NCBI GenBank assembly: GCA_012026655.1
Contig: JAAILG010000009.1
Location: 1-64,000 of the forward strand
Length of the DNA stretch: 64,000 bases
Source of the DNA: Hydrolagus affinis
Taxonomy: Eukaryota
Reading direction: 5' to 3'
A program made the position numbers and the translations under genes. The notes beneath the pieces are model-generated. The model had not been told where the DNA came from, made no database searches, and saw only the letters and a list, made by a program, of their open reading frames with translations. Shown here piece by piece: positions 17,290 through 63,087 of this stretch. Position 1 is the stretch's first letter. Every line of letters begins with the position of its first letter.

Positions 17290-20040
17290 GTGAGTGTTCC
17301 TGCTGTGGAAGCAATCTGATCAAGCAAGCGACACCTTGTGGTCCGGAGGTACCCGTTCTGTTCAGATGCTCAATTTAAGTAATAATATTAATAATAATCC
17401 TTGCATTTATTTGAGACAGCACCTTATTGCCTCATTTGAGACACCTCAAAGCGCTTCACAGAGTATACTGCAAAGTGAATTGACTGTACATATTTGGGTG
17501 AAATGTGACAGCCAATTGCAAACGTGCATTGACCATATTATTTATTTATTTTGAAGGGATACCCCCGAAAAAGCGATATGCTAATCAACCAACGACCAGG
17601 TTTCTACTTACTCATAGGTAAACAGACATGTGGTTCAATATCTCTCGCCACGCCCGGGAATTCAACCCAGGTCCTCTCATTTGTGAAATGAGCGCGTTAA
17701 TCACTAAGCTCTAATGTAGCTTTCAAGAAAGAATTCGACTTGAAGGGTTTGAAGGCATATTGAAATAAGGCAGTGTGGTGGGATTCAAGCAATATTCCTG
17801 TTCTGTGAGCTGAGCCTTGATGGGTCAAATGGCCTCCTTCTGCGCAGTAGATTTCTATGAGTGTTGAATGTTGCAGGAATTAAATTATCCTGGACTCGGT
17901 GTAGCTGTGTTACTGGTGATTTTCAGCAGTGGGGTCTGCAAGCTGAAAACATACCTGATGTTAAAGTTCCTCAGAGACAAGAGTTTGCATAGATCAGCTA
18001 TAAAACTAAAGGGCTGTTGCAACTTTTACCACATCCTTATTCTGCACTGTGCCTCCCAAGGCACTAAAATAACCAGAGGAGGACAAACTGGAAGGGCAAG
18101 AGTTGTTAATCTTGTTGCCCAACAATCGCGCTACAAACCATTTTGACAGTTGTTTGATTGTACCTGTTGGGGTGAGGGGGAGTAGTGGAAGATGGGGTGA
18201 AGACTATTTGATTTACGCTATTTTCTTAACATCTCAGTGCCAGCGCTTGGCGAATTGTTAAATTCTGTTCTGTAGAATTTCTTTGGCGTTTGAGCAGTGA
18301 GCAATTATACCATTGCTGCAAGTTCACTTTGAAACTTGAACATTGGCCCGATTAACTGGGGGTTTTTAAACTATGTTGCGTGACACCCTCAGTTAGAAAA
18401 CAAGGAAATATTTACAGATTCTTCTCTCAACTCTGGCCTACATCACTTCACACTGCTTTGCTGTCTTAATAAAATAATCCTTACATTTCATACAACACGT
18501 TTTGCATCAGGAGGATATCTCAAAACTGTCTGCCACAAAATAACAGCTCACTCCACTGTATAGTACGTTCTGTAAACCGCTTTAAGATGTATTGATGATG
18601 TAATAAGGCACTATACCAAATGCAATGTTATTAATGTTATTATTGAGTCTTCCAGGCTGGGATCAGCCAAGTTGAAGTCCTACTGGTACTTGCATACAGC
18701 ATGGATTTTAATGCCTTTACCCAATAAGTCATCAGGAAGCTCAATTGCACATCTTCAGATTGGCCAACTAGAAAAAGGAAATAGATTTGCATCAGGGATC
18801 AAATATATAACAATATATATATATACACACACATATTTTGGGGAATCAAAATTGCACAAAAGTTTTTTTACTGAGCATCGACAGTAAGACTATATATAAA
18901 GTGCAGACCTGTAAATCAGACGGGTTTGAGCCATGAGTCACTCACTCACTAGCTGAGCCGTCTATTTAAGGAATCTGTTCACTCGCAACTTGACACACTG
19001 CATTTCCTACCCAGCTGTCCTCAGTAACATCGCGAATCATTAGAGAGGTTGCACAGTGTTCAGTGATGGAAAAAAAACAGATTGAATTATTAATGCTGCC
19101 CTGACTCAACCCTAACTTTGAAATCATGAATAAGCACCTTTCAGCAGCTTTAGATTTTCATGTTCAGGCAGAAAACAACAGGAGACCACTGAGCACTGAC
19201 GTCACAGTTAATCCATTACTGTTCCAGAGAACTGAGTTAGCAGAAACCGGCAGAATAATCCACATATGATACACCACCTGCCAGCGATACCAGTAACTTG
19301 AGAATTACAGCCTCAAGGCAGAAGAACAAGGCATCTGCCAGGCTGGGGCTGCTGAGCCTTTTTCACTGATGTGCTGGTTATTTAATAGTAACAATAAAAG
19401 TCCTGGCATTTGATATAGCGCTTTATCACCTTTTTGCAGAGCTTCACGGAATACACTGTGAAGTGAAATGACTGAATATTTTGTGTTTCAAACAAAGTGG
19501 CCAATTGCGCACAGCAGTGTGTTAGGAGACTTTCTCATAGAGGCTCAAGGTCAAATACAATGTTTCTCACTTTCCTCTTCCTCCCACCAAACAACTGCCA
19601 GATTTATGTTGTACAGAATGTCTTTGGATCGTTCAATGTTACTGTTTCTTGGTTTAAAAAAAACATTGACCCAGAAGAAGAGCCTTTTTGTCAACTCAGC
19701 TGACCAGGTGCATTTCTCCGATGACATTTTTCCTCTGTCTTGAAAACTTGTAACACTCAAGTTCCATAGCACAGTTTGTACTTCTCTCTCCTGCTCTATC
19801 TGGCATTCTTCAACTAATGTTGGCTCATTTGGTATTTGTCTGACTGTTATCCAGATGTGTGACCATTTGCGAAAATCTGGCCTGGCCAGCCTCAATAAGA
19901 GTGGTTGCAATTGCAATGCAGTGAGGGAATGAGCGTTAATACGTGACTATTTCTTAGTGTTAGTGAGTTTAGTCACTATACAGGGCAAGATTCTTTTTAG
20001 CCTGAGAACAAAATTAACAAGCTGCCTCCCTTTCCTACAG

Positions 20041-20712
20041 GCCTACACCATCCACGTGATCAAATCTGGCACCTTCGATGCTAACAAGGCACTAATCGTT
20101 CGACGCTATACCGATTTTGCAAAACTGAACGAGACGCTGAACAAAAACTTCAGGGAGGAAATGGACAACATAGTGTTTCCTCGGAAGAAAATACGCAAGA
20201 ATTTCACGCACGAAACGATAGCCAAACGCAGCCGAGCTTTCGAACAGTACCTGCAGCACATCCACTCGATTGCAGACATTCGCCGATCCAAAGTGTTCCT
20301 GGAGTTCTTTTACCTGAGAGATCTAAAGGCAGGCCAGGAGTTACTGCGAGCTGGGATGAATGAGGAAGCCATTGAGACCTTAATCAACGCTCTTCATTTG
20401 CAAGAAAAGCTGGCCTCCTGTGACATGGAGCACTTGGTTTTCACTCTGTCTGCTCTTTCTGTGTGCTACCAGGAACTGGATCAGTTGGACCAAGCTCAGA
20501 CATACTGCGAGCGGGCCGTGCAAATTCTAGAAAATCAGGACAACCATGCACTTTTGGTTCCGTTACTTCAGTCCAATATCAGACTTTCCTGGAAAATAGC
20601 CAAAGACAAACGTCAGTGTGAAGCCAAACTTCAGCAACTTCAGGATGCAGGAACAGATGTTTTAAACCAACCTAGCCTTAAAGAACATCTAATTAAAGAT
20701 CTTTTAGAATGA
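20041..20712 (+). CDS. SNX21: Sorting nexin-21, last coding exon (PX plus helical PXB region)
   Basis: tttcctacag| acceptor; RRYTDF, FPRKKIRKNFTHETIAKRSRAFEQYL and C-terminal PSLKEHLIKDLLE* match SNX21. Confidence 0.95.
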   Translation, partial: AYTIHVIKSGTFDANKALIVRRYTDFAKLNETLNKNFREEMDNIVFPRKKIRKNFTHETIAKRSRAFEQYLQHIHSIADIRRSKVFLEFFYLRDLKAGQELLRAGMNEEAIETLINALHLQEKLASCDMEHLVFTLSALSVCYQELDQLDQAQTYCERAVQILENQDNHALLVPLLQSNIRLSWKIAKDKRQCEAKLQQLQDAGTDVLNQPSLKEHLIKDLLE

Positions 20713-31178: not shown

Positions 31179-31242
31179 GAAGGGGGCGGCAGGGTCAGGG
31201 TGTGGGGGTCAGAGTAGGGGGGAGGCGGGGGTCAGGACCTAC

Positions 31243-33070: not shown

Positions 33071-34606
33071 CTGCAGCCAGAAAAAAAGAGCAAAAGTGAA
33101 ATTGTTACTTAAGCATTCATATGTGAGAGATTGCACGTATACCATTAAGTTTGCAGGAAAGACAGCAAATCTGAAAAATTACTCGACAGCAATCGTATGT
33201 CTGCTCAGGAACAACAATAATTTTACATTCATTTAGCATCTATCACATGAAAAGGATGTCTCAAATCGTTTCACACAGTTGCCTGGTAACGTGAGGTCGG
33301 TGTGGGGTAGATGAGAAAGGAAGAGGGACGGAAAATTTACTAAGAGTGTGGTAAAAAAATAAATATGAGCTTTAAAGGAAGAAAAGGATACAGTAGCATG
33401 TTCAGTTGCATTACTTTAACAATGTCTGCTTTTTATGGGAAGCCACTCAACTGAATTTTTACCATACAGCTGTGTAATTCCCTCTTAATAATAATAATAG
33501 TAATCCTTGCATTTGATATAGCACCTTATCACATATTTGGGACATCTCAAAGCACTTCAAGGAATACACTTCAAAGAGAATTGACTACATTATATGGGCG
33601 AAACACAGAAGCCAACTGTGCACAGCAGTGTCCCACAAACAGTTGTGGATTGAAGTGACCAATATATTATTATTATTATTTTCTGGACAGGCTTCAGCAA
33701 TGAACTAGCCTTCTAGTTGCGGAAGGCTACAGGTTGCTGTGACTGTCCAGTTACATCTTGAAAACTCTCTGGGTTACCCTATTGCGGAGAATGTGGAACT
33801 ATGGTTAAAGCCAGCAATTATTATTCCAATTATGGAATTAATTAAATATTCCAAATTAAATTCATTGTAAAGTTGTAACCTGTTGTAATTAATAATCCTT
33901 GCATCCTTTGTATAGCGACTGTCAACAAGAACAACAAATTGCAATCATATAGCACCCTACACATCAGGAGAACATCCTAGCTGGACAGTCAAGGTTTATA
34001 CACAAGCTGGGGGTTAGATTCAGAGGGTGGGACCCAAACAGTGTAACAGGATAAGTTAACTGAAGGCTCACTCAAAAAGGAAAGTTTTGAGATGGACCTG
34101 GAAGGAGGTTGGAGGTAGGTGGTGCTCGAGGATGAAGTTCCAGAGGGTGGAGGCAGAAAGGCTGAAGGCCCGACTGTTCATAGCGTGGAGCAGGCAAGGC
34201 AGGGATGCAATGCCTACTAAGTAGTGGGAAGACGTGAGTTTATAGGTTTTAAAGCTAAAGGAGATTTATGCTGTCAGTGCTAGAGGTGAAAAGGTGGGAG
34301 CCAAGCAATGTCTCACAAACAGCCATGAAATTAATCAGCAAATGTATTTGGAGGATTTTTGGCCATAACACCAGGAGAGACAAACTTCCCTCTATTTCAG
34401 TAGGGCCATGAAATCTTTCACACACGTGAATGGGAACTTGCCGACAGGAAATATAAATTTGTTCACAGAATTTGCCTCCACCATATCCCTTTGTAACTTA
34501 TTCCTAATTTTTGTTAGTAAATAAATCAAGCTGAAAGGTTGAGTAAAATAATTGATTTGTCCTGTTTTTGGTCAGCAGGGTTTCTGATATGTGCGGAAAT
34601 ACTTAC

Positions 34607-35294
34607 AGCCATATTCCACTTGTATAATCCTCACACTCTTAGTAGAAGCAAACACATCCACGACTGCATAAAGTGGCTGGTTAATGGGGATTCCTCTTGC
34701 ACAGGGACCCATGTCCTCTCCATTGATGACAATGTGCATGTCCCCCACTCCAGCACTTTTGATGATGTATAGAACCCCAACCCTGCTTCTCCTGGCTGTC
34801 GCTGGAAGTATATTACTCTTATATAGTTCATCTAAGATATGACTGTACCTCCCCGGTCTACTTCTACCCACTAGCTTATCCTTTGGGATCTTACATTCTC
34901 CAATTTTCAAATAGGCTTCCATGGGAGAAAATGATGGTCTTGGGGGAAGATTTGGGCCCTCCTCGTCAGTTGAGACTTTATTGTGATTCCTTGTTATGGC
35001 AAAAACCCAGCTGTTCCCCAAATTTACCAGGTCAGGGAGAGAGTATTCAGGAACAATCTCCAGTTTCCTTGGGTTGAGCGATGTTAATCCAATCCTAAGG
35101 TGCCCACACCATCCCAGTTCTTTTTCTTCAATTTCCACAAGAAAAATTGTAGAGGGTTCCAAAGGGTCTTGACTGAAACACACCCCATTGGCAAAGCTCT
35201 CGACCCTGCTGGCTTGGGTCCCCGACTCATCCAGCCTCACGTTGGTTCCATGAATGCAGTGGAAACGCAAACAGGGATCAGCTACTGCAGCCAT
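34607..35294 (-). CDS. NEURL2: Neuralized-like protein 2 (Ozz-E3), exon 1, NHR domain
   Basis: MAAVADPCLRFHCIHGTNVRLD...ESFANGVCFS...ELGWCGHLRIGLT...LVGRSRPGRYSHILD...YAVVDVFASTKSVRIIQVEYG; donor T|gtaagt. The start could lie further upstream in the same open frame (to 35477). Confidence 0.95.
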
Positions 35295-36797
35295 TTCTTC
35301 AACGCGGAATGCCTCGGCTATTTTTAACCACTGTGTTTTGTGTGAGAGGTCAAGTCTGACAGCTGGTGTGGAAAGTCTGATAGGATTCAAATCATATCTA
35401 AAAAAGCCTGGTGCTTTAGTTCTGCGTGTCCTAGTGCCAGTCAGTGGAGCTGCCTCAACGTGATATAGAAAGAACATTGCTTTCCCAAGATATGCCTCAG
35501 TTGAATTTGGGTTATAACATAAGTGTTTATATTACTATTAAGGTAAACATTTAATTATTAACCAAATATAGTGATTATTATTTTATTGATAAAAACATAC
35601 TTTTGCCTCATTGATTTAGTTGTCTTTAATGAAGAAACAACAAAATTATACTTATGGAGCGCCTTTCACATCAGGAGGACGTCCCAAGAAAGCTAAGGCA
35701 CAGCGTTTGTCAGAGGTCATTGATAAAGTCAATTAGCGCCTTGAAAAGAGTAGTAAAAAACTCTCTACAAAAGTTGGGAATGAAGTTGGAAAGTACATAA
35801 TAAGGCAAAGACTGACTTTTTTTCATTAAATACCTGCAGTGTGAGAGGAATCAATCTCGGTAGTTATAAACCAATTTCCATTTGCTCATCAAACAAATAG
35901 TTAAATTGCTTTGTGTTTCTAGTTTGGAATGAACACAAAAGCTTTGTGTGGGGCTTTCAGTGGAGTATTGTCAGACTCAAATACATATTGAGTTGATATT
36001 TTATTTCCTTGTTTCCGACTGATTTTCTAGTCTGACACGTGTGGAAACCCATCACTATGGTTAAGTGTATCCAAACCAAATTGAGAATTCGACTCATCCC
36101 ACCTACACATAGAAATTCCAGAGAAAAGACTGCTGGAATGGAAAATGGGCACTCTCTCCCTGGAGACACACATTCCTGTTTACCTGTTTTCCCCCCAAAG
36201 TATTAGGCACAGGTTGGCAAGCGCCAAGGCCGGGGGACCTCACCTGGAAGTATTGCTTGGAGTTAGAGAGAGAGAGAAAAAAAAACTAGCACAGCCTCAT
36301 AGTCAGTCAGACAGTGAGTCAGTTACAAGGGAGGTGGAGGGATATTTAATATTCACAGGACATTTCTGTGGAGGAATCATCCTGGGATTCACCATCGGAG
36401 TCCAGGCTCAAATACGAACCATCGTTGTGTTTTCTGGAGGAACCCTGTTGCCCTTGACAGAGAGAGACTTTAGCCAAGTCAGGACACCGGCTAGAAAAAT
36501 CTGAAAGCGTTTTTGGCGTGTTTCCACCCCTCTCCCGTCTGGGTTGACGCTGTGCTACAGGTGTCTGATGTGTCCAGGATGCTGGAGCTGAGGCAGTGCT
36601 CAAAGGGCTTTTGCTGAAGCTGGAAATGAGATCTGTAAAGGAAACGCAAGGGACTGGTTTCACCATCGCCATGTCTGTTTGCGGGCATGTTTGTGGGCGT
36701 GAGACAGTGTGGTGGTGGAGGTTGAGAGCGGAGTGGTGGAGGAGAGAGGCAGAGGAATGGAGAAGGCCCGGAGAGGCAGGGCGGTGGAGGAGAGAAG

Positions 36798-37529
36798 CTA
36801 GATCCTTGTTGGGGAAGAACGATGGAGTGTTCGTGGAGGAGAGTGGCTGTGTGGTGGAGAAGTAGGGGGGCGGCGTGATGGAGGAGAGGGGCGTGGTGGT
36901 GCAGCAGTGTCTACTGGAGGGAGGGAGTTTGCTGGGGGGAGGGTGTTTGCTGGGGGGAGGGTGTTTGCTGGAGGGAGGGGGTCTGCTGGGGGGTGGGGGT
37001 TTGCTGGGGGGAGGGAGTTTGCTGGTGGGAGAGTGTTTGCTGGAGGTAGGGAGTCTGCTGGGGGGAGGGGGTCTGCTGGGGGGAGGGGGTCTGCTGGAAG
37101 GTAAGGTGGTTTGGGAGGATCTTTCGGAGCCGATTTGCTTTTGACTTTCAATATCCGATCCTTGGTGAATTTGAAGACCACTGAGCTGGCGCCCACCCCG
37201 GGGGGGAGGTCAAACTCGTTAGAAAAACCACGGATGCTAAAGCTGGTCGCCCCATTTAGACCTCTGTGCTCCACCAAGTGTTCTCCAAACACTTTTATTT
37301 TCCCGTCCTTGATCTTCAGAAACACCTCCTCTGGCTTCATGCACCCCAGCTGCAAACAGTAGGAAAACCTGCCCCGACAGGCGACCCGCGGGTCCTGCGG
37401 TGGACCTTGGGGAGGTGGGTTGGGAGTTGAGTCCTCCGGTGGCGGGGCGTCTTGAGGGGGGACTTTTGGCCGCTTTTGAGGAGAAGTCAGTGATTGTTTG
37501 GGCGTGGGAACCTGCGGTGGGTTTTGCAT
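36798..37529 (-). CDS. Cluster gene A: alpha-crystallin-domain (sHSP-like) protein with Pro-rich ends and PPADPL repeats
   Basis: FSYCLQLGCMKPEEVFLKIKDGKIKVFGEH...GFSNEFDLPPGVGASSVVFKFTKDRILKVKS fits the ACD strand pattern. ATG at 37529, shared upstream motif, AATAAA on the - strand at 36000-36005. Confidence 0.75.
   Translation of the reverse strand: MQNPPQVPTPKQSLTSPQKRPKVPPQDAPPPEDSTPNPPPQGPPQDPRVACRGRFSYCLQLGCMKPEEVFLKIKDGKIKVFGEHLVEHRGLNGATSFSIRGFSNEFDLPPGVGASSVVFKFTKDRILKVKSKSAPKDPPKPPYLPADPLPPADPLPPADSLPPANTLPPANSLPPANPHPPADPLPPANTLPPANTLPPANSLPPVDTAAPPRPSPPSRRPPTSPPHSHSPPRTLHRSSPTRI
36915..37098 (-). repeat. 18-bp coding tandem repeat encoding about 10 copies of PPA(D/N)(P/S/T)L
   Basis: Repeated gggggagggggtctgctg-type units; translation PADPLPPADPLPPADSLPPANTL... 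Confidence 0.9.
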
Positions 37530-37680: not shown

Positions 37681-37755
37681 GTATTTCCTTACGCCACAGG
37701 TTTGTAAGCGTGAGATCACACTCGTCTCCTACACATCAGCGATGAAAAATGACTA
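37681..37755 (-). promoter_or_regulatory. Shared cluster upstream motif, copy A
   Basis: Coding strand: gtagtcatttttcatc...TGTGATCTCACGCTTACAAACCTGTGGCGTAAGGAAATAC, about 150 bp before the ATG. Confidence 0.7.
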
Positions 37756-39852: not shown

Positions 39853-40722
39853 TCAGAACAGTCGTGGGCAACAACAGAGCGGGAAATTTTCAAACGCGCC
39901 CTTGTTTTTTTTCTTCCTAACCCTTTTGGGGTCAGGTTTGCGTTTCCTGGGGGCAGGTTTCGGGCGGGTCCCACGGGTCTGAGCTGTTGGTTTCGAAGCC
40001 ATCTTCCCACCTGTGGGGTACTGCTCTCCAGTGGAGGTGTTGGTCGACTTGCTGGTACCAGTAGACTCCGGTGGACTGGACGCGATGGATAGTTTGCTTG
40101 TGTCGGTGGTGACAAGACGCATGGAGCGGACCGAAGACTTTTTGGAGTCGGTGGTTTCAGTCGGAGTGAAGCTGAGGGAACTCTTCGAGTCCGAGCTGCG
40201 GTCCGTGCTGGACTCGCGTCTCCGGCTCGGCTGTCTGGTGGATTTCATCGACCTCCCTACCGCCTGTAAATTGGTTCTTCTGGGCGCAGGGCGCCTCGGT
40301 TCCCAGGAACGATCGTCGGAGTCGTAGGTCTTGGGTTTGAAGGGTAATTTGAATCTGGGGTCTGACGGCGGAGATCTTCTGGAGGCAGCCCCTCTGGGGT
40401 GGCGACTTGCCTTGGACAGCTCCAGGTTCTGAACCTCGGCCGTCTTCGGCTCCGCTTTACAGGTGGAGTAATCGGCTTCAATCAGCAGCGTGTGCTTCTC
40501 GCACACGGTCAGACTCACGGTTCTCGGGTCCACCTCCTCGGGTAGGCTGAAGGTGTTGGAGAAGCCGTGGTAATTGCGCCTGAGCATGCCATCCTCCTCC
40601 ACCGTCATTTCAACCCGTTCGCCAGACACATTCACCGTACGGTCCTTGATGTTCCCTTTTATATTCTCTGGCAAAATATCCCCCAGGTTTATACGGACGG
40701 AAAACTTCGGGCGAGGCTTCAT
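39853..40722 (-). CDS. Cluster gene B: ACD protein with Ser/Thr/Arg/Lys-rich tail ending PLCCCPRLF
   Basis: FSVRINLGDILPENIKGNIKDRTVNVSGER...HGFSNTFSLPEEVDPRTVSLTV; shared upstream motif; AATAAA (-) at 39551-39556. Confidence 0.8.
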   Translation of the reverse strand: MKPRPKFSVRINLGDILPENIKGNIKDRTVNVSGERVEMTVEEDGMLRRNYHGFSNTFSLPEEVDPRTVSLTVCEKHTLLIEADYSTCKAEPKTAEVQNLELSKASRHPRGAASRRSPPSDPRFKLPFKPKTYDSDDRSWEPRRPAPRRTNLQAVGRSMKSTRQPSRRRESSTDRSSDSKSSLSFTPTETTDSKKSSVRSMRLVTTDTSKLSIASSPPESTGTSKSTNTSTGEQYPTGGKMASKPTAQTRGTRPKPAPRKRKPDPKRVRKKKNKGAFENFPLCCCPRLF

Positions 40723-40867
40723 TTCTACTGAACATTGGATGTATCTTTCCAGAAGTTTTCGCTTTCCACTCCTATTGCTAATATCCAGAGAGGGGTAGGA
40801 TCCATAGCTATCCCATGTTAGCCCGACTTGATGTAGTTCACTGAAGTTGTAATTTTCTGAAAAACGT

Positions 40868-40931
40868 CAGTGCATTTGCTTACGCGGCGGATTTGTGAGC
40901 GTTTGATGCACCTCTATGATGAAAATGACTA
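40868..40931 (-). promoter_or_regulatory. Shared cluster upstream motif, copy B
   Basis: Coding strand: tagtcattttcatc...TCAAACGCTCACAAATCCGCCGCGTAAGCAAATGCACTG. Confidence 0.65.
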
Positions 40932-43095: not shown

Positions 43096-43698
43096 CTAGA
43101 CTGACCCACAGCACAGAGGACAACATGGCTTTGGGGCTGGTGATACAGGCTGTAGTTTAACCCAATTGCTATTGGGTTCACAGGCTATCACAGAGGCAGG
43201 TTTGCGCTTATTATCTCGGCTGTCGCCCTTTGACTTGGAACCAGCTCCTCCTCCTTTCTTATTATCCTTCGAGTTCTGCGGGGATAAGTCCCTCACTGAT
43301 TTGCGATTCTCAGTGGGATTTTTGTGAGTTCTCGGCGGCTCCTGAAACTGTGTCTTGGAGCCAGCGTTCTTCCTGTTGGGCGCTCGTCCGGCTGCATACT
43401 TGTCCCCCTGGATGAGGATAGTGTCATCGTTGGGGACGGTCAGGATCAGGGAATCTGGATCCACGTCGTCGGGAAGGTTAAACTCGTTGGAGAAACCGTG
43501 AAAGTTATAGCTGATCTCTCCATTCTTGTTCTTGATCTCATCCACGTGTTGGCCAAACACGTTGACCCGACTGTCCCTGACTGTGGCGTTCACTTTGTGT
43601 GGGGATTTCCCATTGCGCAAATTGATTGCGACATTGTACTTCGGTGGGTGGGCGAAGGAAGCAGAGTGTAGTTTCTCTCGAGACTTTGGTTTTGACAT
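43096..43698 (-). CDS. Cluster gene C: ACD protein with basic tail ending PKPCCPLCCGSV (true start may lie in the N-gap)
   Basis: YNVAINL...VRDSRVNVFGQH...FHGFSNEFNLPDDVDPDSLILTV; frame is open up to the gap at 43745-43844; AATAAA (-) at 42926-42931. Confidence 0.78.
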   Translation of the reverse strand: MSKPKSREKLHSASFAHPPKYNVAINLRNGKSPHKVNATVRDSRVNVFGQHVDEIKNKNGEISYNFHGFSNEFNLPDDVDPDSLILTVPNDDTILIQGDKYAAGRAPNRKNAGSKTQFQEPPRTHKNPTENRKSVRDLSPQNSKDNKKGGGAGSKSKGDSRDNKRKPASVIACEPNSNWVKLQPVSPAPKPCCPLCCGSV

Positions 43699-51900: not shown

Positions 51901-52177
51901 GACTACTAGTAACAATAAGGTTCAGAGTATCTGGATCTGTGTCTTCAGGGAGATTGAATTTGCTGTAAAACCCATGAAAGACATTTCTGGTCATTCCATT
52001 TTCTTCCTGAAGATTTACTGATTGATCTCCAAAGACATTTACTCTTCTTCCATTGATTGTTGAATTCACTTTATTCGCAGAAATATGTCCAAGATTTAAA
52101 CAGATAGAAAAATCTTGCAACTTTGTTTCATTGCTTCTTCTTTGCTTTGTATTATCAAACAGATCTTTTGGATCCAT
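45929..52177 (-). CDS. Cluster gene D: 2082-aa single ORF with N-terminal ACD and a very long repeat-rich S/Q/E/K/P tail
   Basis: 6.2-kb uninterrupted ORF with ccATGG start; FSICLNLGHISANKVNSTINGRRVNVFGDQ...FHGFYSKFNLPEDTDPDTLNLIV; internal repeats; AATAAA (-) at 45689-45694. Confidence 0.85.
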   Translation of the reverse strand: MDPKDLFDNTKQRRSNETKLQDFSICLNLGHISANKVNSTINGRRVNVFGDQSVNLQEENGMTRNVFHGFYSKFNLPEDTDPDTLNLIVTSSHTVTVTATRYKHLSTATTDKQITNNMTNQPDMDHGVSTTMNEHFISTNQEQNQLPEATNISLHSLTEKPSVHQPVTTESQQKVTSKWAIEDQPEIVDLEGRIPNVSATPSHVSALPTDLEEGNKVSIPLLEENDEYESHSPPERDEPIKPDPMALKSSSKSGSLTGIPTAINPIPAVHLPNEAKKANHRSISFSKETSQLSSKEEQTIQDHSSEKGSNLDKQKKIPSSQKKPKLAKILPNKKSKESQFEPAKSSKERDSMSTKSSSLTANAFQVLNDGTESSPGIPETPNQDLPISMEPNAVEEPAENMQPKSEQQDNLPNLSTEEEKGPVLDKQKNVPSLQKGSMDSNSIFKRKDKETTQVKSANFSLENEELRSTLYPLTGKDSIDSNQDTVSHKNIQESETQNLPISVEPSSFEEHDENLLPTKQKNHPSLSSEKSSDLSKQKKIFSSRKKPKLAKHIFNRKSSTTSAKSSTKSENFGTQSSSLTSEVFQVLYHDTESSPGSPEPPNQDPLDSMEPNAFEEPAENMEPKSEQQDNVPNLSADEEEGPVLDVQKKISSLHKSSTGSKNIFNGKGKETTKAKSALENEELRSILHPLTGKGSQDSNHNTESHRSIPEPETQDQPISMVPSSFKKHDETLPPTEDEQNNHSSPSSDEGSDLSKQNKIPSSKKKPKLAKNPFNKKSKETSQFKPSNSSTESDSIGKKSSSLMPKVSQALNHGTESSPGSPTPPNQDLPTSIELHSFEGHDENFNDQQNNQTNLSLEEGPGPQNLPVSMEPNLSEEHIDKLSLTDEQQGNILNLSSEETSDLHKQKEIQPPTKEPTFSKIVFNGKDSEIPGSAKSSLGNDGLRTRPLPLSPELSSNSSSESQSPSSSPEPEKRDLPISMTPTPFEEYNENFQPSDKPQDNLSDLSSEESLVNEKQQNGPSPQNKLSKNIIHGESKETIQLRPKESPSESGNVIAKSALPVTPKESKISKPDIESLPGSPEPKNQDLPIYMEPSSFEEHKENLSSTHQQQNYLPNRSSEENQNKTQNKHEGSQELSTQNGHDLPESQDPQYGDVQRNSQNFIGIHTEDKQYAPRVHPHSRQIPRKLYSGYGHQDLESQDPQYFVKLYSQDITGNQFIDERYALKSDHHSIRGSQEYHSQYDQDFSETHSEIPQHSRNSHSPNQLETHSRHKELKPEYHPQVEPSLSEYTTQYGQYLISNIPLFLCSYDSALVSKDPQHAKNFHLQNCQVLLKTHLRDFQDRQTAMHGPSQSKQDLPEAYSQSPQYVKSVISQDGQDLPKSNSKHKQSTPKLQSRHNSHESSFQYQQDRPEAQSENPPNDSKVPKQNSQDPMQMFSENKHYARKPSLQSRQISQESASKVGKVISGTQSQISQNARKAHRKSQDSVHTNTEDKQHSRKSSSQSRPVSQVFSNQYQQDLSETQTPQSSREVRRQGQDLKEDFAESCPINWEFDFVSEPPSRWVSQEFPFKYCESISEIKQEVSQTGLNALRQSQGPFQTNNLGKKYALVYQSHSKQISEEISIQDILATHPQFPENGGNGSRQNQISIPAKTIPAEYDLVSLQTKHSRQNTRASYFQSEQEMQPKNNRNLRRQSQDILETHTVYKDSALTTPMPSRREVNDQNGRIAQELQLPVQEIGKNFKRQDPPQPKSLTGEHDLGSLPHSKRGTHQSNIPNLQEVQAMQSQASKHGRNLIRSSQDPLDIQVLTVYKNQDLLTSSESTRGVQHMQGNLEMNPQVQENGRKISRQSQNLLENRAVSKGYAPVYQPHSRQSFLESLNQNGQNVPEMRLHESEYGRKVGRQSLGRSETAYEDGEDAPQSTSHSRRVSGDLSSQHAQLPIQSQDVENVRQQQTPSKQDFIKILPKDVHVTSKSLPGGAQVSVKSPRQNTQYLPETTSQNHTKIHCRGRPNIPQRIHCKCKSISNSKRPMTFLKTSNQASESMAEERDTDNEENDCSQGRFLLQCICNKKRTPVSSNTKMCRCSELH
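48830..51280 (-). repeat. Coding tandem repeat in gene D, about 330-bp units paired into about 660-bp higher-order units
   Basis: cttagccagtttgggtttcttt (KKPKLAK) at about 51195, 50525 and 49868; QDLPISMEP-like motif recurs about every 330 bp. Confidence 0.85.
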
Positions 52178-52245: not shown

Positions 52246-52296
52246 AAGTGCTTGCTTGCATCTCAGATTTGTAGGCAAATTATTTACTGCTAAAAT
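52246..52296 (-). promoter_or_regulatory. Shared cluster upstream motif, degenerate copy D
   Basis: Coding strand: gtcattt...TGCCTACAAATCTGAGATGCAAGCAAGCAC, same position relative to the ATG, with the CpGs lost. Confidence 0.4.
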
Positions 52297-54382: not shown

Positions 54383-54445
54383 CTTTCATCACAGTGGCGA
54401 GGTAAGGCGTGGGCCGAGAGACCTGTGGCGTAAGCAAAGACACTG
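54383..54445 (+). promoter_or_regulatory. Shared cluster upstream motif, copy E
   Basis: ctttcatcac...ACCTGTGGCGTAAGCAAAGACACTG, about 70 bp before the ATG. Confidence 0.65.
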
Positions 54446-54513: not shown

Positions 54514-55029
54514 ATGGATCCCCTGGGTTCCGGACCACAACCAGATAACAGGACTGGCCCCAGCAATCCCAAAAAGTTTTCCGTCTTCGTAAACCTTGGG
54601 AATGTCGCTCCTGACCAAGTCGTGGTGAAAATCAAGGACAGGACAATGACTGTCTCTGGGGAACATATGGAGAAGGTGCGGGATACCAGTGGGGTGGCGA
54701 AATATACTTTCCACGGTTTTTCCAACGAGTTTGACCTACCCGCTGGTGTGGAGTTCAATTCCCTGGTCTTCACGGTCCTGGACAACCACGCAATGAAGAT
54801 TGAAGTGGAGGAACCTCAACCTCAGGACCACACTTCAAACACTGAAGTGCAACCGTGTGCCTCCATGTGTTTCACCCCCAAGTCATCCGTCTTTACCCCC
54901 ATGAGGTGTTCCAACCAGAGAAAGGTCCACTTAGCAACAAAACTCAACAGCCAGAAAGGCCACAGTCATCGACAAGAACAGCCTCATCGGGCCAGGTCGA
55001 TCTCCCCCAGCCATTGCTCCAGAAATTAA
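54514..55029 (+). CDS. Cluster gene E: compact ACD protein, the most ODF1-like by eye
   Basis: MDPLGSG...FSVFVNLGNVAPDQVVVKIKDRTMTVSGEH...KYTFHGFSNEFDLPAGVEFNSLVFTV; shared upstream motif; ATTAAA at 55364-55369. Confidence 0.8.
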   Translation: MDPLGSGPQPDNRTGPSNPKKFSVFVNLGNVAPDQVVVKIKDRTMTVSGEHMEKVRDTSGVAKYTFHGFSNEFDLPAGVEFNSLVFTVLDNHAMKIEVEEPQPQDHTSNTEVQPCASMCFTPKSSVFTPMRCSNQRKVHLATKLNSQKGHSHRQEQPHRARSISPSHCSRN

Positions 55030-55804: not shown

Positions 55805-56100
55805 AGGGGGTCCTGTAGCTCAGTGGTTAGAGCACTCGCCTTACAAGCAAGAGACCTAGGTTCGATTCCAGACAGGACAAAACCTTGGGCAAGTTTCTTT
55901 ACTCCATGTGCCTAGTAATAATCCCTCCAAAAAAAATCAATTGTTTATTTCAATCCATGACTGTTTGTGGGACTCTGCTGTGCACAGTTGGCTGCCACAT
56001 TATGCCCACAAATATAATCAATTCATTTTATAGTATATTCTGTGAAATGCTTTGAGACGTCCAGAAGACATGCTATATTAGATGCAAGTTTTATTATCAT
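55805..56100 (+). mobile_element. tRNA-derived SINE copy
   Basis: gtagctcagtggttagagc...ggttcgattcc head, colinear with the copy at 7082-7389. Confidence 0.85.
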
Positions 56101-56979
56101 TTAGTGTGAACATTAATTACATGAAGTGAGACTCATAATAGGTCCTGGAATTAGAAATGTTGGCATCACAGTACAGACACCAAAATAAATAAAACCCCAC
56201 AGTGAATTCAATATGTTTCATGTTCGATATACATATATCCCTCTCCACAAAATGCAGATAATTATTTTATATCTGTAATATGGCAGGTTTCAGAGGATAG
56301 TTTACAAGGTAATTGAATTCCCTCCTTTCAAATACAACTGCCATCAATCAATAGGAAGATTACTGTGCTCGTAAAATCCAGGACCTTCTGTCTCTCGGTC
56401 TCTCTTTCTCTCTCTAACCTGTTATTTTGTAAGATCATGTGTAATGACTCCACAGCAGTGGATATGACTTAAAACTATTCTATGTAATCTAAAGCAATTG
56501 GAGGTTCAGATGTGTAACAAAATCCTGGATGTTTTATCATGGTTATCATGTAGCATATTGATTAGAAGATTTGCCTTGCAAGCAAGTGAACCTGGGTTTG
56601 ATTTCTGGGCAGGGCAAAACATTAGGCAAGTTTCCCTACTCCATACGCCTCTGCTGATCCAATAGTAAGAAGGAACCCGGTTGTTAGTAAATTGACAAAT
56701 TGGTTTCCTCAATCCATGACTGTTTGTGGGGCACTACCTTGCGTCATTGGCTGCCATTTTTTGCCAACAAAATATACAGTCAATTCACTTTACACAATGT
56801 TCTGGGAAACCAGAATATAAAAATACTCCATATAACCTAAAGTACCTGTAATTGGACATTCAGATAAGTAACAAAACATTGCTTTTGCCAGTGCCTCTGC
56901 ACCTCAGGTATTGGCAGCATTAGCAGCCACGAACGCACACTCCACCTCACCAAGCCTGTCAGGAGGAGCCTTGTTCGAC

Positions 56980-57971: not shown

Positions 57972-58050
57972 GTTATTTTTTTTCATCACATAGGTGAAAG
58001 ACGATGTGAGTGATCTCACGCTTACACGTTTGTAGCGTAAGCAAATCCTG
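57972..58050 (+). promoter_or_regulatory. Shared cluster upstream motif, copy F
   Basis: tttttcatcac...GTGATCTCACGCTTACACGTTTGTAGCGTAAGCAAATCCTG, about 80 bp before the ATG. Confidence 0.7.
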
Positions 58051-58128: not shown

Positions 58129-59320
58129 ATGCCAAAGGGATCAGGAGCGGATCCGAATAATTCATCTCAAGAATCGGCGGCTGAAAACAACAAAGCAACA
58201 GGGAAGAGTAACTCACACAAGGGGGAGGATGAGGAGCAGTGTCTCGATGGAACCAGGCAGAAAGCGTTCAGCGCGACTTTAAACGTGGGCGATGTGAACG
58301 TGGATGAGATGACTGTCAAGGTGAAGGGCAGAAAGCTTTGCGTGTCTGGTCAACACGTAGAGAACCGGGCCAACGGGTTCTGCTTTCAAAGCTTCAGCGG
58401 TGAATTTACTCTCCCTCTGGACTTGGACCACGCCACCCTGACCGCCACCATTTCCGACGACCACACCATGAGAATCGAAGGGTACCGAGCCGCGCATATC
58501 AGTTCGAGTTCGCAGACGGACGAGAGGCTCTCGGAGGTGAGAGCGGCGCTGGCGTTGAGGAAACGCGCCGCCTGCACCGCCGGTCGCAAGACACCGGATG
58601 CCAAACGCCAGCAGTTAATCAGCAGGAAAAGCAGCGTCTGCTTTGCTAACCGCGCCTCGAACGCGTCCAACCGCCTGGATTACACCGATCACATTGCCAC
58701 CGAACACATCTGCTCCACCATAGTCACCATCCCCCAGAGGTGCAAGTCCAAAGTGAACTGCAGCATCAGGAGCACAACCTCCAAGGCTTCCTTCTCACTC
58801 AACCCCAGGAACCCCAAGATAGACATGACTCACGCTTTCCCCACCAGCGAGGTCCAACCGATCAATGACATCTCCCGCCAACCCACCAACACCTCACTAC
58901 CCGATACCTGGCTTCAGACCAACACCAGCACCAATAACACCGCCGCCGCCGCCACCGCCGCCGCCACGCCTGTTAGCTCAACCGTTGGTTTGAANNNNNN
59001 NNNNNNNNNNNNNNNNNNNNNNNNNNNNNNNNNNNNNNNNNNNNNNNNNNNNNNNNNNNNNNNNNNNNNNNNNNNNNNNNNNNNNNNNNNNNNNCTCGGT
59101 AAAGCCTCTTGCATGACTGCACTTGCCAGCACCCTGCACCCAATCCAATTTGCATAACAGATCGATAACTACAGAAGAGATCATCACCTCAAATCCACCC
59201 CCCCCTCCCCCCCCCACCCCACCACCACCCTCCTCAGGCACCATCAGTGGGAGAGTCTGTCAAAAAATGACAGAACCAAACTCCCCATTGCGAAGCAATA
59301 AAGAGCTTCTAGGGAAATGA
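58129..59320 (+). CDS. Cluster gene F: ACD protein with S/T/A-rich tail, interrupted by an N-gap; 3' end uncertain (59157 or 59320)
   Basis: FSATLNVGDVNVDEMTVKVKGRKLCVSGQHVE...FQSFSGEFTLPLDLDHATLTATISDDHTMRIEG; gap at 58995-59094; a Pro-rich frame after the gap ends at 59320; AATAAA at 59444-59449. Confidence 0.75.
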
Positions 59321-61003
59321 TACCAATCGCTTGGATGGATTGAAGGAAGCAGTTTCTACGACTTCGAGTCTCGTCTGGCGATGGAGAAGAATGATCTCGC
59401 CTTCAATTGGTCTCCGAGCGCCCAGCCACAATCTGTAGTTATCAATAAATAAAACGCAGATTTGAGCTTGTTGTTGCCATTGTCCAAATTCATTCACACG
59501 TGTAAGATCTTCCAATTGGGTGTTGTAACTAACAAGGAATTCGAATTGATTTACCTCCCACGAATTCAGAGCAGGACATGGCAGGTCAGTGTCACGATTG
59601 TAATAAGCTTGCACTTTGGGGTTTGCTAGGTCACTCAGCTTGTCAATCAAACGATTTATTTGTTTAGCTTTTGGCGATCACTCCAGTTGTTCCTTTGAAA
59701 GCGACCGACTGCAATGGATTCAAGAAGATGGCCCAGAGGAAACTTCTCAATGAAGCAAAGTGTAAGGTGTCACCAATATAATCCTGTACAAATGTTTCAG
59801 TTCGATGCAGAATATAGAGTTGTTGTGGTCCTGGACTAACATAGCAAACCCTGATAGTGCTGATGTAGTGTTTTGGAGAACTCAACACCCTGAATATGTC
59901 ATATCCTCCCAGTACAATCGTTGAAAGGCTTTGCACTGTATGAAGTCTAAGGTTTTTTTTTTTTACTTTGAACCAAATTAGTACATTATTGGCCAAATAC
60001 AAGTAAGAGTTTTGAAAGCGATAACTGCAAACAGGACTGAGCCCTTTTGAGGATTCTCAACAACGGGAGGAAAGCTTCTCCCACTGTCAGTACCACTATT
60101 AGTCCTTAGCTGCTTTTATCACCTGGTACTGAACCACATAACCCCGATGATTTGTCCACTTTAAATTCCATCAACCTATTATTTACCACTTTGGTGTCGA
60201 TATTTATATCAAACAGTCCCTTGCAGCTGACTGCTTTCTTCTAAAAATTTCTCTATAACTGTTTGATGATATTAATATTAATCTTAGGCGTTGTGACTTT
60301 CTTTCCAGATTTACATTCAAGTAGTGATCTGCTAAACACACAATTCACACGATGAAGGTATACACCGAACTGTATGTCCAGAACAGTGGAGTCTCGGAGA
60401 CGAGTACGTTCGAGTCCAGTAGATGTTGGCAAGTCTGGAGGTAAACATGGTAGCGACTACATCCAACAGTATCGATACTATATTTACAGTCTTATCTCAT
60501 TGTAGCATCCGATACTGTATGATCTTAAACAACACCATGCAAACCTCATAGCTGGCACAATTACAAGGACATGATTTGAAAGCCATCTTTGGGTTAGGGT
60601 TAGGGTTGGTGGTATTTCCCAGTTCACATATGGATTTCAGGTCATATACTTTCATGGGTATATTCGAAGTTATATCACCGATATCCGCTCGCCCAATATT
60701 TTGTGGTTAATCGCACATTCCCCGCCAACCCTGGCCGAGCAAATACGTCGGGCCCTTTGTGGCGTAATATCTTTATTGCAACTTTGGAGCATCCCTCTAC
60801 AACAACAACAACAACAACTTCGATTTACATAGCGCCCTCCACGCCGGACGGCGTCTCTCTCAGAGCGCTTCAAATACACTCTGCACACTATACAGTGTCA
60901 GCTCGCCCGCCGCACATCATGTCACTTCCAGTGACACAGTTGCAGGACATAAAAACTCTCTTGTAAAGCAATGCCGCAGGTCACAGAAGTGTACAATGAA
61001 GCC

Positions 61004-61043
61004 TGTGATCTCACGCTTACAAACACGTGGCGTAACAAATACA
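61004..61043 (+). promoter_or_regulatory. Shared cluster upstream motif, copy G
   Basis: TGTGATCTCACGCTTACAAACACGTGGCGTAACAAATAC, almost identical to copy A. Confidence 0.7.
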
Positions 61044-61076: not shown

Positions 61077-61356
61077 ATGGACTCTGTGAATGATGATAGT
61101 AAGATTTTTTTTTCAGCGACGGACCCTTCCATACATCTCCTCCCAGTTGGGACGTTGGTAACACTTAGATAAAAGAAGAAGAAGAAGAAGAAGGCAACTG
61201 AAAGGCGGCAGCGATTCGTGAAGATCTCGCTTTGGGTCTGCTCGTCTCTCCTCTTGGTGAAAAACCACACTTGGGGAACAGATTGAGAGAGAGGCGGAGC
61301 TGAGGGGTACCTCGAAGAGAGCTGATTCCAGAGCTGATCGTGCCCTCGGTGCTGGC
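61077..61356 (+). pseudogene. Disrupted 5' part (ancestral start and decayed ACD) of cluster gene G
   Basis: The ATG GAC frame reads MDSVND...VTLR*KKKKKKKATERRQRFVKISL...VKNHT; a frame change then gives LGEQIEREAELRG, which runs into the 576-aa ORF. Confidence 0.45.
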
Positions 61357-63087
61357 ATGCCTTTTGCTGACACTGTGATCCTCACCATATCAAGTGACCG
61401 GCCGGTCAACATCCGGAGGGATGACCAGCCCACCACCAATGCTCACAACAAGTGCATCAGCATCCGCTGCCACTCACGCAACCTCAGGCTCCGGATCAGC
61501 GCCGAGTCAAAACGCGGCGCCCAAGTCCGCGTTGCGCAAAGGAAACGCATTTCCTCCTCCCGGAGTCGCGCCCGCAAGAGGTCCCGTACTTGTCCCAGAT
61601 TGACCTCCGGGAGACACACTCGCCGCCGTTCTCCGCCGGTGTCCGCCGGCCCCCTCCGCCGGCGACCCCTTCCCTCCAAATGCGCTCGAAGGAAACCCAA
61701 GCGATCGCTTTGCGGGAGGAGCCCGCGTCCCACGGCGGGCGGCTTCTCAAGTCGGAAGAAACGCAGGCGCCTCCTCAAACCCCCTGGAAATCCGTGCCCG
61801 ACCCCCGTCTTGCCTTCCCCCAAACGGAGGAAGCGTAGGTTGTCCAAGAGATACGCTCGGCAGAGGCGAGAGCCAAGTCCCAATCCCACCACCAGTGGGA
61901 TGTCAACGCCGAGGCAGTGTCTCTGCTTCGTTACCACTACTCTGGACAACCGCACCCCTTTTCCAGCCGGTGCCTCCCGGCATTGCACCTGCCCAGCTTC
62001 CCTCCGACAACCCTTCTCCAAACCGCGGGTTCGGAGGCCGATCCAACCCCCACCCGACTTGTCGGGAGGAACCAGCCGCGATCCCGAAAGGGCTGCCGTC
62101 CAATTCACCCAGTCGGCTTTCAGAAAATGCGAGGAGACGTTTAGGAACGTCATGGGGGCTCTGAGGATCACCAGCCCCCCTCCCACTGCTCACAACCCGT
62201 GCAACCGCGCCTGCGATCCGGTCCTGAGAAAGTGTCTGCCAACTGGGAATCCTCAGCCACACAAAATGCCCTGCGGGACCCCTCACCCCGCCACCTCCGA
62301 TAGAAGCGTCCAATGTAGTCGCCATCCCTCTCCTCCGAGCAACTGTGAACGTTTGATCCCAGAAACCAGGGTTGAGGCTTTTAGCCAGACCGGGCTCCCC
62401 TCCTCCCCCCACCGCGGGCTCCCGACTCGGCCCAAGCGCAAGAGGGCTGCAGATCCCGTGGTCCACATCTGCTGCGTCACTGGGACTTCCTCGTTCGCGT
62501 CGCCTCCACCCGAGGAACCGGCCGGCAGCAAGAGCAACCTGGAATCCCCGTCAAGGGATTCAACCCCCCGGAGGTTTGGCCGTCAGAGACGCCTCCCCAA
62601 ACGGGAGAAACAGACCTGTCCAAGGTGCCTGAAACCTACATACAGGAGCTTCCCGGTTTACTTGGCGGAAACGTGCCTCGGGCCTCAGGATTTGGCCTCG
62701 GTCCCGCCTGTCAACTCACAGGACCAGACGAGCTGGAGACAGAACGAGCCGAAGCCTGGATGTGACCCATGTACCACGTCCCCACGATCAGTTTCGGAAA
62801 TATTTTACATGCCACCGAAACCCTCTAAGACCGTCAGAAATTCCAGTGAAACTATGTGGTGTAGCTCCCCTCAACCCGGTACCATCAGGTTTTGTAAATC
62901 TGCTGAACCCAGTGCGGTGAAATCCTGCAGCCCGGCAGCCCCCAGCTCAATGACCTCGTATGCCTCTTCCAAACCCAGTACATCCACCATCTTCATGTCT
63001 CCGGAGATGTGCCTTTTCACTCCAAACCCCGCCTCGGTTCCTCGCAACACATCACCAGATAACTACCCGAGAACGTGTCAAACCTAA
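61357..63087 (+). CDS. Cluster gene G: 576-aa Arg/Cys/Pro-rich ORF with only a remnant of the ACD
   Basis: Long GC-rich ORF. N-terminal DTVILTISSDRPVNI aligns with the last ACD strands of C, D and F; upstream motif near-identical to gene A's; AATAAA at 63442-63447. Confidence 0.65.
   Translation: MPFADTVILTISSDRPVNIRRDDQPTTNAHNKCISIRCHSRNLRLRISAESKRGAQVRVAQRKRISSSRSRARKRSRTCPRLTSGRHTRRRSPPVSAGPLRRRPLPSKCARRKPKRSLCGRSPRPTAGGFSSRKKRRRLLKPPGNPCPTPVLPSPKRRKRRLSKRYARQRREPSPNPTTSGMSTPRQCLCFVTTTLDNRTPFPAGASRHCTCPASLRQPFSKPRVRRPIQPPPDLSGGTSRDPERAAVQFTQSAFRKCEETFRNVMGALRITSPPPTAHNPCNRACDPVLRKCLPTGNPQPHKMPCGTPHPATSDRSVQCSRHPSPPSNCERLIPETRVEAFSQTGLPSSPHRGLPTRPKRKRAADPVVHICCVTGTSSFASPPPEEPAGSKSNLESPSRDSTPRRFGRQRRLPKREKQTCPRCLKPTYRSFPVYLAETCLGPQDLASVPPVNSQDQTSWRQNEPKPGCDPCTTSPRSVSEIFYMPPKPSKTVRNSSETMWCSSPQPGTIRFCKSAEPSAVKSCSPAAPSSMTSYASSKPSTSTIFMSPEMCLFTPNPASVPRNTSPDNYPRTCQT

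What the first reader, a model, noticed from the sequence alone, without database searches (positions are those of the whole stretch)
54574..54810. ACDs look ODF1 (HSPB10)-like, suggesting sperm flagellar accessory-structure proteins
Seen: gene E VNLGNVAPDQVVVKIKD..VSGE..KYTF..EFDLPAGV and gene A KPEEVFLKIKDGKIKV..EFDLPPGV. Known, recalled from memory rather than searched: the ODF1 ACD reads approximately [39 protein letters not shown], and ODF1 is a Cys-rich outer-dense-fibre protein. Chondrichthyan sperm tails carry accessory longitudinal columns. Inference: the cluster may supply such fibres. Hsp30/HSPB9 ancestry is the main alternative.
Basis: inference. Interest (0 to 1): 0.72.

Follow-up and report, generated by a model that had tools for sequence, protein, structure and literature searches.

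The report
Shark-lineage cluster of ODF1-related crystallin genes
Cartilaginous fishes carry a tandem cluster of fast-evolving small-heat-shock-type genes whose core domain groups with the sperm-tail protein ODF1, which makes them testable candidates for sperm structural proteins, although nothing yet shows that they are made in testis.

Summary
The stretch is the alpha-crystallin domain (ACD) of gene E, one of six single-ORF ACD genes (A-F) plus a domain-less ORF G beside NEURL2 in a chimaera-like fish. Paralogue-specific orthologues exist in sharks, skates and elephant shark, with locus tags in the same order. The family joins frog ODF1 at 99/91 support, a clade with Hsp30 is rejected (AU p 0.01-0.04), and calibrated long-branch simulations never reached the observed support (0 of 140). 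Both groups lack the HSPB1-R140-equivalent Arg and the beta8-beta9 Gly. The genes are not ODF1 proper: no N-terminal helix, no C-X-P array, and neighbours unlike those recalled for ODF1, so probably an expanded paralogue. Five of the seven genes share a 35-bp upstream element (an identical 17-mer before A, F and G), and no perfect heat-shock element lies near any of them. Sperm function, and above all a role in the longitudinal columns, is untested: no testis data, amniote ODF1 or HSPB9 sequence was reachable.

The parts
54574..54810 (+). ACD of gene E (the finding)
54514..55029 (+). Gene E ORF, 171 aa: short N-terminus, ACD, 69-aa S/T/K/R-rich tail with 4 Cys
   Evidence: orthologues P0004 and P0007 (Chiloscyllium chiPu_0003379), tree 98/93
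54406..54440 (+). Shared upstream element of E (right half well kept; core 86 bp before the ATG)
36798..37529 (-). Gene A ORF, 243 aa, ACD plus Pro-rich 18-bp repeat tail
   Evidence: orthologue chiPu_0003383
37682..37716 (-). Shared upstream element of A, with the identical 17-mer at 37703-37719
39853..40722 (-). Gene B ORF, 289 aa, ACD plus basic S/T-rich tail ending in a Cys tip shared with the catshark orthologue
40873..40907 (-). Shared upstream element of B
43096..43698 (-). Gene C ORF, 200 aa, ACD plus basic tail with Cys tip; an assembly gap (43745-43844) lies where its element would be
   Evidence: orthologue chiPu_0003381, 49% over 199 aa
45929..52177 (-). Gene D ORF, 2082 aa, N-terminal ACD plus very long low-complexity tail
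   Evidence: below the Pfam cut-off; D clade 100/100
52249..52283 (-). Weak candidate copy of the element before D (8.9 bits against 37-50 for the training sites)
58129..59157 (+). Gene F ORF (spans the N gap 58995-59094), ACD plus tail; 59% identical to the Callorhinchus model over 288 aa
58013..58047 (+). Shared upstream element of F, 17-mer at 58010-58026; the bin is at single-copy depth in a related DNA run
61357..63087 (+). ORF G, 576 aa, no ACD, rich in Arg, Pro, Ser and Cys; residues 255-570 are 52% identical to the Callorhinchus model; start uncertain
61008..61042 (+). Shared upstream element of G, 17-mer at 61005-61021
34572..35477 (-). Neuralized-domain exon (NEURL2-like; name recalled), left flank of the cluster
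   Evidence: Pfam Neuralized 112.9 bits
23314..26014 (-). Exons of an acyl-CoA thioesterase (ACOT8-like; name recalled)
   Evidence: Pfam Acyl_CoA_thio on 23317-23679; the 25658-26014 frame had no Pfam hit and is assigned by position
19933..20712 (+). Last exon of a PX+TPR sorting nexin (SNX21-like; name recalled)

Best explanation
An old tandem family of cartilaginous fishes (at least A-F here; H and I follow in other species; a J pair lies on another scaffold), descended from the same ancestral sHSP as tetrapod ODF1, most likely as its duplicate at another chromosomal site rather than ODF1 itself. Each protein is an N-terminal, interface-altered ACD plus a paralogue-specific disordered tail. 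SHOWN: domains, orthologues, tree position, loss of the R140-equivalent Arg, shared upstream element. INFERRED: the element switches the genes on together in one cell type, most likely spermatids; the ACDs act as self- and hetero-assembly modules of an insoluble structural scaffold rather than as stress holdases; basic S/T-rich tails with terminal Cys bind partners and cross-link by disulfides; the scaffold is a sperm accessory structure (tail columns, neck or midpiece). Odds: ODF1-lineage ancestry about 0.7; male-germ-line expression about 0.6; specifically longitudinal columns about 0.25.
For: 61-row ACD tree: family (32 rows) plus frog ODF1 (5) at 99/91; SH-aLRT 90 in the 119-row quick tree; 97/90 with only the six window domains and 98/91 in a 43-row subset; 98/85 after dropping four diagnostic columns. 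AU rejects family+Hsp30 (p 0.010) and family+Hsp30+cyclostome rows (p 0.038). Calibrated simulations recovered the clade in 63 of 70 when true, in 9 of 70 and 7 of 70 under two rival trees, and reached the observed support in 18 of 70 versus 0 of 70 and 0 of 70. Arg at the HSPB1-R140 position (register): 0 of 36 family rows, 0 of 5 ODF1, 5 of 8 Hsp30, 42 of 67 others; Asn there in 20 of 36 and 4 of 5. Gly lost and followed by Thr/Ser at beta8-beta9: 26 of 36, 5 of 5, 0 of 8 Hsp30, 1 of 67 others. The family profile's best single non-family domain is frog ODF1 (66.3 bits); solved HSPB1-8 chains score 49.6 or less. Identical 17-mer before A, F and G, 0.00 expected, while their ACD coding DNA is only 52-61% identical. 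ODF1 is testis-confined and structural in mammals (PMC8913478 passages); chondrichthyan sperm carry accessory columns (PMC11856307 passages).
Against: Pairwise similarity is a tie: mean identity of the family to ODF1 23.7% and to Hsp30 24.3%; best non-family BLASTP hit was Hsp30 for 14, ODF1 for 12, others for 10 of 36 domains; the full-length frog ODF1 profile ranks shark Hsp30 (up to 59.2 bits) above the best family member (52.8). A tree with ODF1 beside Hsp30 is not rejected (AU p 0.15). Only 88 columns, both groups are long-branched, and amniote ODF1, HSPB9 and vertebrate HSPB1-8 are absent from the trees. Shared losses at the dimer interface could be convergent, and cyclostome rows also lack that Arg (Glu in 3 of 3). 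No N-terminal ODF1 helix and no C-X-P array. No expression evidence of any kind.
Confidence: 0.55

Rival explanations
1. The cluster (or its J pair) is the direct co-orthologue of ODF1: the gene moved or its neighbours were rearranged, lost its N-terminal helix and expanded. Function as in the best explanation.
For: Same tree evidence. No separate shark protein resembling ODF1 appeared among the 150 listed of 1004 hits or in the two ODF1 searches. The Callorhinchus model carries six CPxxPC-type units after its second ACD.
Against: Searches also missed amniote ODF1 and one search missed one of its own query rows, so the blank has no weight. Neighbours here are SNX21/ACOT8/NEURL2-like, whereas UBR5/KLF10 are recalled for ODF1. 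J nests inside the family (99/96).
Confidence: 0.15
2. An independently accelerated offshoot of the Hsp30/HSPB9/HspB11 lineage (or an unresolved third lineage) that looks like ODF1 through convergent loss of the chaperone dimer interface; it could still be testis-specific, as HSPB9 is.
For: Pairwise tie; profile-profile scores close, 109.0 with ODF1 and 101.9 with Hsp30; the long beta5-beta7 spacing (18-20 residues) is shared by family, ODF1 and Hsp30; single-ORF domains fit intronless Hsp30-type genes (PMC5101479 passage on chicken HSP25). Uncalibrated simulations gave the false clade in 16 of 60 and 12 of 60.
Against: AU p 0.010 and 0.038; 0 of 140 calibrated rival simulations reached the observed support; sharks have their own Hsp30C-like genes, which group with coelacanth Hsp30C at 100/84.
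Confidence: 0.2
3. Whatever its ancestry, the cluster serves a somatic structural or stress role (for example egg-case gland, skin, muscle), and the shared element drives that tissue or is a regulatory remnant of a mobile element.
For: Tandem, co-regulated, low-complexity proteins with Cys tips also typify secreted or cornified structural clusters (general knowledge). The right arm of A's element matches a SINE-like repeat over 26 nt at 88%.
Against: No perfect heat-shock element within 500 bp of any of 7 genes; one-mismatch sites at 2 of 7, against about 1.2 expected from the window rate. The 17-mer occurs only before A, F and G, and F's element lies in a single-copy-depth bin. Closest named relative is a testis protein.
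Confidence: 0.1

Closest known systems
ODF1/HSPB10 (frog proteins named so by NCBI: Discoglossus, Pelodytes, Spea; mammalian features from PMC8913478)
   Same: ACD groups with it at 99/91; shared Asn at the R140-equivalent position, loss of the beta8-beta9 Gly, long beta5-beta7 spacing
   Different: A multi-gene tandem family, not one gene; ACD near the N-terminus with long variable C-terminal tails (69 to 1979 aa); no N-terminal helix or leucine zipper; no C-X-P array in A-F (0-2 each; frog ODF1 also has 0-2); neighbours differ from those recalled for ODF1
Hsp30 / HSPB9-like sHSPs (shark Hsp30C-like, coelacanth Hsp30C, trout SHSP rows, hagfish HSPB11-like)
   Same: Long beta5-beta7 spacing, EFxLP and KYTF-like motifs, ACD in one ORF, equal pairwise identity
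   Different: Keep the beta8-beta9 Gly (8 of 8) and mostly the Arg (5 of 8); form their own clade (93/90 with cyclostome rows and P0135); exist as separate genes in sharks; no perfect HSE here
Canonical vertebrate sHSPs (HSPB1, CRYAA, CRYAB, HSPB6, HSPB8)
   Same: Same beta-sandwich fold
   Different: Lower profile scores (49.6 bits or less); they use the R120-D109 dimer salt bridge (PMC8913478 passage), whose Arg is missing here; no I/V-x-I/V in the tails of A, B, C or E

Membership tests
Small heat-shock protein / ACD superfamily | Alpha-crystallin domain by profile | tested here: met
   Pfam HSP20 above cut-off for 5 of 6 (A, B, C, E, F); D 18.2 bits against 20.8
Small heat-shock protein / ACD superfamily | ACD beta-sandwich fold | tested here: met
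   Model of E, pLDDT 86.7, six strands; Foldseek to HSPB1, CRYAB and HSPB6 ACDs, TM about 0.7
Small heat-shock protein / ACD superfamily | ATP-independent holdase activity and oligomers | not testable with these tools
   needs protein assays
ODF1/HSPB10 | ACD falls with ODF1 in a tree | tested here: met
   99/91 with five frog rows, three of them named ODF1 by NCBI; no amniote ODF1 in the tree
ODF1/HSPB10 | Extended N-terminal domain with helix / putative leucine zipper | tested here: not met
   A profile of the frog ODF1 N-terminus finds the fifth frog protein at E 1e-6 but no family member better than E 0.56; E has only about 20 residues before the ACD
ODF1/HSPB10 | C-terminal C-X-P repeats, Cys-rich | tested here: not met
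   0-2 CxP in A-F; E orthologues 0.6% Cys. Frog ODF1s lack the array too, so this feature may be amniote-specific
ODF1/HSPB10 | Orthologous chromosomal position | tested here: inconclusive
   Neighbours here are PX+TPR, acyl-CoA thioesterase and Neuralized genes; the ODF1 neighbourhood and the 8q22/20q13 paralogy are recalled, and a paper search gave no support
ODF1/HSPB10 | Expression confined to spermatids; protein in sperm tail | not testable with these tools
   No RNA holder listed; relevant supplements unreadable
Hsp30 / HSPB9-like | ACD forms a clade with Hsp30 | tested here: not met
   AU p 0.010 and 0.038; mammalian HSPB9 itself not available
Hsp30 / HSPB9-like | Heat-shock elements in the promoter (Hsp30; feature recalled) | tested here: not met
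   0 of 7 genes with a perfect HSE in 500 bp upstream; part of C's upstream region is a gap
Hsp30 / HSPB9-like | Intronless coding region | tested here: inconclusive
   Each ACD and tail lies in one ORF, but no transcript was available to exclude 5' exons

The most novel reading that the evidence does not exclude
ODF1 has a lost sister: a genome-duplication paralogue that survives only in cartilaginous fishes, where it expanded before the chimaera-shark split into about ten co-regulated, non-chaperone ACD proteins, driven by one shared cis element, that build the helical accessory columns of the sperm tail. This would give the first molecular parts list for that structure and date the sHSP-to-sperm-skeleton co-option to the jawed-vertebrate ancestor.
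Probability: 0.25. Interest if true: 0.8.

Novelty: new variant of a known kind. Interest (0 to 1): 0.6.

Why it matters
ODF1 is usually discussed as a single mammalian sperm gene. A conserved, multi-gene ODF1-related family across sharks, skates and chimaeras would put the lineage in the jawed-vertebrate ancestor and show a large expansion of chaperone-derived structural proteins that databases label 'hypothetical', 'uncharacterized', 'mucin-4-like' or 'MYB120-like'. It offers named candidates for chondrichthyan sperm accessory structures and a shared cis element, both checkable at once in existing catshark organ RNA-seq and testis proteomes. No description of the cluster turned up in ten searches of the open library; subscription papers are not covered.

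Tried and rejected
Word-indexed search with gene E found nothing. Searches with frog ODF1 returned only frog proteins, so amniote ODF1 and HSPB9 are missing. No genome is held for this window. The ESM Atlas gave only generic HSP20 clusters for E (score 0.86) and nothing for G. No RNA holder was listed. Three single-cell RNA runs of one sample, of unknown tissue and under another organism label, laid almost only on repeats and gave next to no reads on the ORFs of C-G; the closeness of that organism is not shown, so this is no evidence (A and B were outside the laid stretch). Run X1 covered D to G in long pieces about 97% alike, at a flat low depth, which shows the region in a relative and nothing on expression. 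Stem length as a statistic under plain C20 simulation was dropped because the positive control failed too (0 of 100); it was redone with alignment-mimicking simulation. A constrained-likelihood simulation timed out without output. The upstream element as a conserved RNA hairpin was rejected: only 1 of 6 copies folds clearly better than shuffles (A, z -3.65; F -1.77), and Rfam has no match there. X-box or CRE identity of the element was considered from recall and left open (loose pattern at 3 of 7 genes). Three look-ups of earlier findings returned nothing.

Full report
OBSERVATION. Pfam HSP20 hits five of six candidate ORFs above its cut-off (A, B, C, E, F) and D just under it; ORF G has no hit. 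A model of the E domain is a six-stranded ACD sandwich (pLDDT 86.7) that matches solved HSPB1, CRYAB and HSPB6 domains. A-D lie on the minus strand, E-G on the plus strand, directly 5' of a Neuralized-domain gene, with acyl-CoA thioesterase and PX+TPR exons further left (the names NEURL2, ACOT8 and SNX21 are recalled).

THE FAMILY. A profile of the six domains found 1004 proteins at E 0.001 or better, of which 150 were listed. I judged 26 of the 150 to be family members; 20 were looked up, 15 of these have a named source and all 15 are cartilaginous fishes (Chiloscyllium, Scyliorhinus, Heterodontus, Leucoraja, Amblyraja, Callorhinchus), 5 are unnamed. Window genes A, B, C, D, E and F each group with their own orthologues at 97 to 100 bootstrap. 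Locus tags fit the same order: Chiloscyllium 3383 (A), 3381 (C), 3379 (E), 3377 (a model holding two further domains, H and I), and S. torazame 3310 (F) and 3307 (I). A J pair lies on another Chiloscyllium scaffold. Window F joins the Callorhinchus protein at 98/91 and is 59% identical to it over 288 aa, so the window is probably from a chimaera, and the paralogues predate the split of chimaeras from sharks and rays (inference).

ODF1 OR HSP30. The same search returned frog proteins, three named outer dense fiber protein 1 by NCBI, and shark and coelacanth Hsp30C-like proteins. Similarity alone does not decide. Mean identity is 23.7% to ODF1 and 24.3% to Hsp30 (E alone: 28.5 and 24.5). The best non-family BLASTP hit was Hsp30 for 14, ODF1 for 12, unnamed others for 8 and cyclostome rows for 2 of 36 domains. 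Profile-profile scores are 109.0 and 101.9. Trees do decide, within limits. The 119-row set (36 family, 5 ODF1, 8 Hsp30, 3 cyclostome, 67 others that were not looked up and look invertebrate; 18 near-duplicates and weak or short domains left out beforehand) put family and ODF1 on one side of a branch at SH-aLRT 90 in a quick tree. A 61-row set (51 others and 7 redundant or odd rows dropped) gave 99/91 under LG+C20, and subsets gave 97/90 and 98/91. AU tests reject family+Hsp30 (p 0.010) and family+Hsp30+cyclostomes (p 0.038) but not ODF1+Hsp30+cyclostomes (p 0.15). Because both groups are long-branched I simulated data on the rival trees. Plain C20 simulation gave the false clade in 16 of 60 and 12 of 60 and in 32 of 200 and 37 of 200, with 2 of 200 each at the observed support, against 61 and 14 of 100 when true. 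Simulation matched to the real alignment gave 9 and 7 of 70 false recoveries, none at the observed support or stem length, against 63, 18 and 10 of 70 when true. Shared derived sites agree: the Arg equivalent to HSPB1 R140 (register; its alphaB counterpart R120 forms the dimer salt bridge, PMC8913478 passage) is absent from 36 of 36 family rows and 5 of 5 ODF1 rows, mostly as Asn, and the beta8-beta9 Gly is lost in both but kept in 8 of 8 Hsp30. Removing those columns leaves 98/85. Limits: 88 columns; no amniote ODF1, HSPB9 or vertebrate HSPB1-8 could be fetched; the latter were only scored (49.6 bits or less, against 50.2-66.3 for four frog ODF1 rows, 34.9 for the fifth, and 50.5-61.2 for Hsp30 rows).

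NOT ODF1 ITSELF. ODF1 is described with an extended N-terminal domain bearing a putative leucine zipper and C-terminal C-X-P repeats (PMC8913478 passages). The family has the domain near the start, matches no frog ODF1 N-terminal profile, has 0-2 CxP in A-F, and E orthologues have 0.6% Cys. Short Cys tips are conserved in B and C. From recall, not from a call: human ODF1 lies at 8q22 between UBR5 and KLF10, the SNX21-ACOT8-NEURL2 block at 20q13.12, and the two regions share duplicated gene pairs; HSPB9 lies elsewhere. If right, the cluster is an ohnologue of ODF1. One paper search gave no support.

A SHARED UPSTREAM ELEMENT. Five of the seven genes (A, B, E, F, G) carry a related 35-bp element 86-327 bp before the ORF start. 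In leave-one-out scans the left-out site ranked 3rd, 5th, 6th, 5th and 5th of 127,932 positions, and the next-best sites with the full matrix are at 36705 and before D. An identical 17-mer stands before A, F and G only (expected 0.00), although ACD coding DNA of A, B, E and F is 52-61% identical. It is not an Rfam family nor a conserved hairpin; F's copy lies in a bin of single-copy depth in a related DNA run. A's right arm resembles a SINE-like repeat over 26 nt. No perfect heat-shock element lies within 500 bp of any gene. The element ties domain-less G to the cluster and implies joint, constrained regulation (inference); the factor is unknown.

MECHANISM. Most likely the genes are switched on together in spermatids, and the proteins use an altered ACD as an assembly module and their basic, S/T- or Pro-rich tails and Cys tips to build an insoluble scaffold, as ODF1 does in mammals. 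Only the anatomy and ancestry are shown. Chondrichthyan sperm do have columns beside the axoneme (PMC11856307 passages; PMC8812575 passages), but a review classes them with the fibrous sheath, treats outer dense fibres as a mammalian addition and notes that some chimaeras lose or reduce one column (PMC11276731 section 2.4). A reference title seen ties mouse ODF1 to head-tail linkage, so neck or midpiece roles are equally open. No expression data could be reached.

PAPERS SEEN. PMC8913478, PMC5101479, PMC11856307, PMC8812575, PMC11979771 and PMC13052469: passages only; PMC11276731: passages and section 2.4; PMC3964593: searches of one supplement file. All others: search listings. Ten searches showed no description of this cluster, and six locus identifiers gave 0 papers; subscription journals and unread supplements may hold one.

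VERDICT. Observation confirmed; ODF1 affinity supported by phylogeny rather than by the cited motifs; sperm-fibre role plausible but untested. New variant of a known kind, interest 0.6.

Noticed in passing
window 36346-36705 (-): A 108-aa ORF (36346-36672) follows gene A in another frame, and the sixth-best copy of the upstream element (36705, 9.6 bits) ends at its ATG. It may be a small extra gene, or A's true C-terminus behind a frameshift in the low-complexity stretch.
   Followed up: partly
window 40723-40860 (-): B's frame is open upstream of the first ATG and resembles the longer N-terminus of B orthologues; an out-of-frame 26-codon ORF lies there. The start codon may be misassigned or the base calls wrong.
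   Followed up: partly
window 61077-61172 (+): A 31-codon ORF just behind G's element loosely resembles the N-terminus of paralogue H; G's real start or first exon may lie here.
   Followed up: no
P0161 (Callorhinchus) and P0001 (Chiloscyllium): Public gene models appear to fuse neighbouring cluster genes (F + part of G + H; an N-terminal Cys/Pro-repeat region + H + I). The window's G has no BLASTP match to the N-terminal part of P0001.
   Followed up: partly
P0039, P0049 (chiPu_0011803, chiPu_0011804): A second locus of the family (J pair) on another Chiloscyllium scaffold; its neighbours could not be seen.
   Followed up: no
P0058, P0073, P0088, P0133, P0160: Frog ODF1 proteins lack the C-terminal C-X-P array (0-2 CxP), so that feature may be a later addition.
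   Followed up: partly
window 55809-55880, 44950-45030, 56018-56800, 60806-60857: High-copy repeats between the genes, one with a tRNA-like head (Rfam tRNA, 49.9 bits); they attract nearly all laid RNA reads.
   Followed up: no
window 39629-39641: The only perfect three-unit heat-shock element pattern in the window lies about 210 bp past B's stop and 2.1 kb before A; probably chance.
   Followed up: no
window 27487-27948 (+) and 30690-31208 (-): Reading frames that look like LINE reverse-transcriptase remnants between the thioesterase and Neuralized genes (judged by eye).
   Followed up: no
window 45929-52177 (-): Gene D is far longer (2082 aa) than the D orthologues found (273-1110 aa) and contains internal repeats of about 200 aa.
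   Followed up: no
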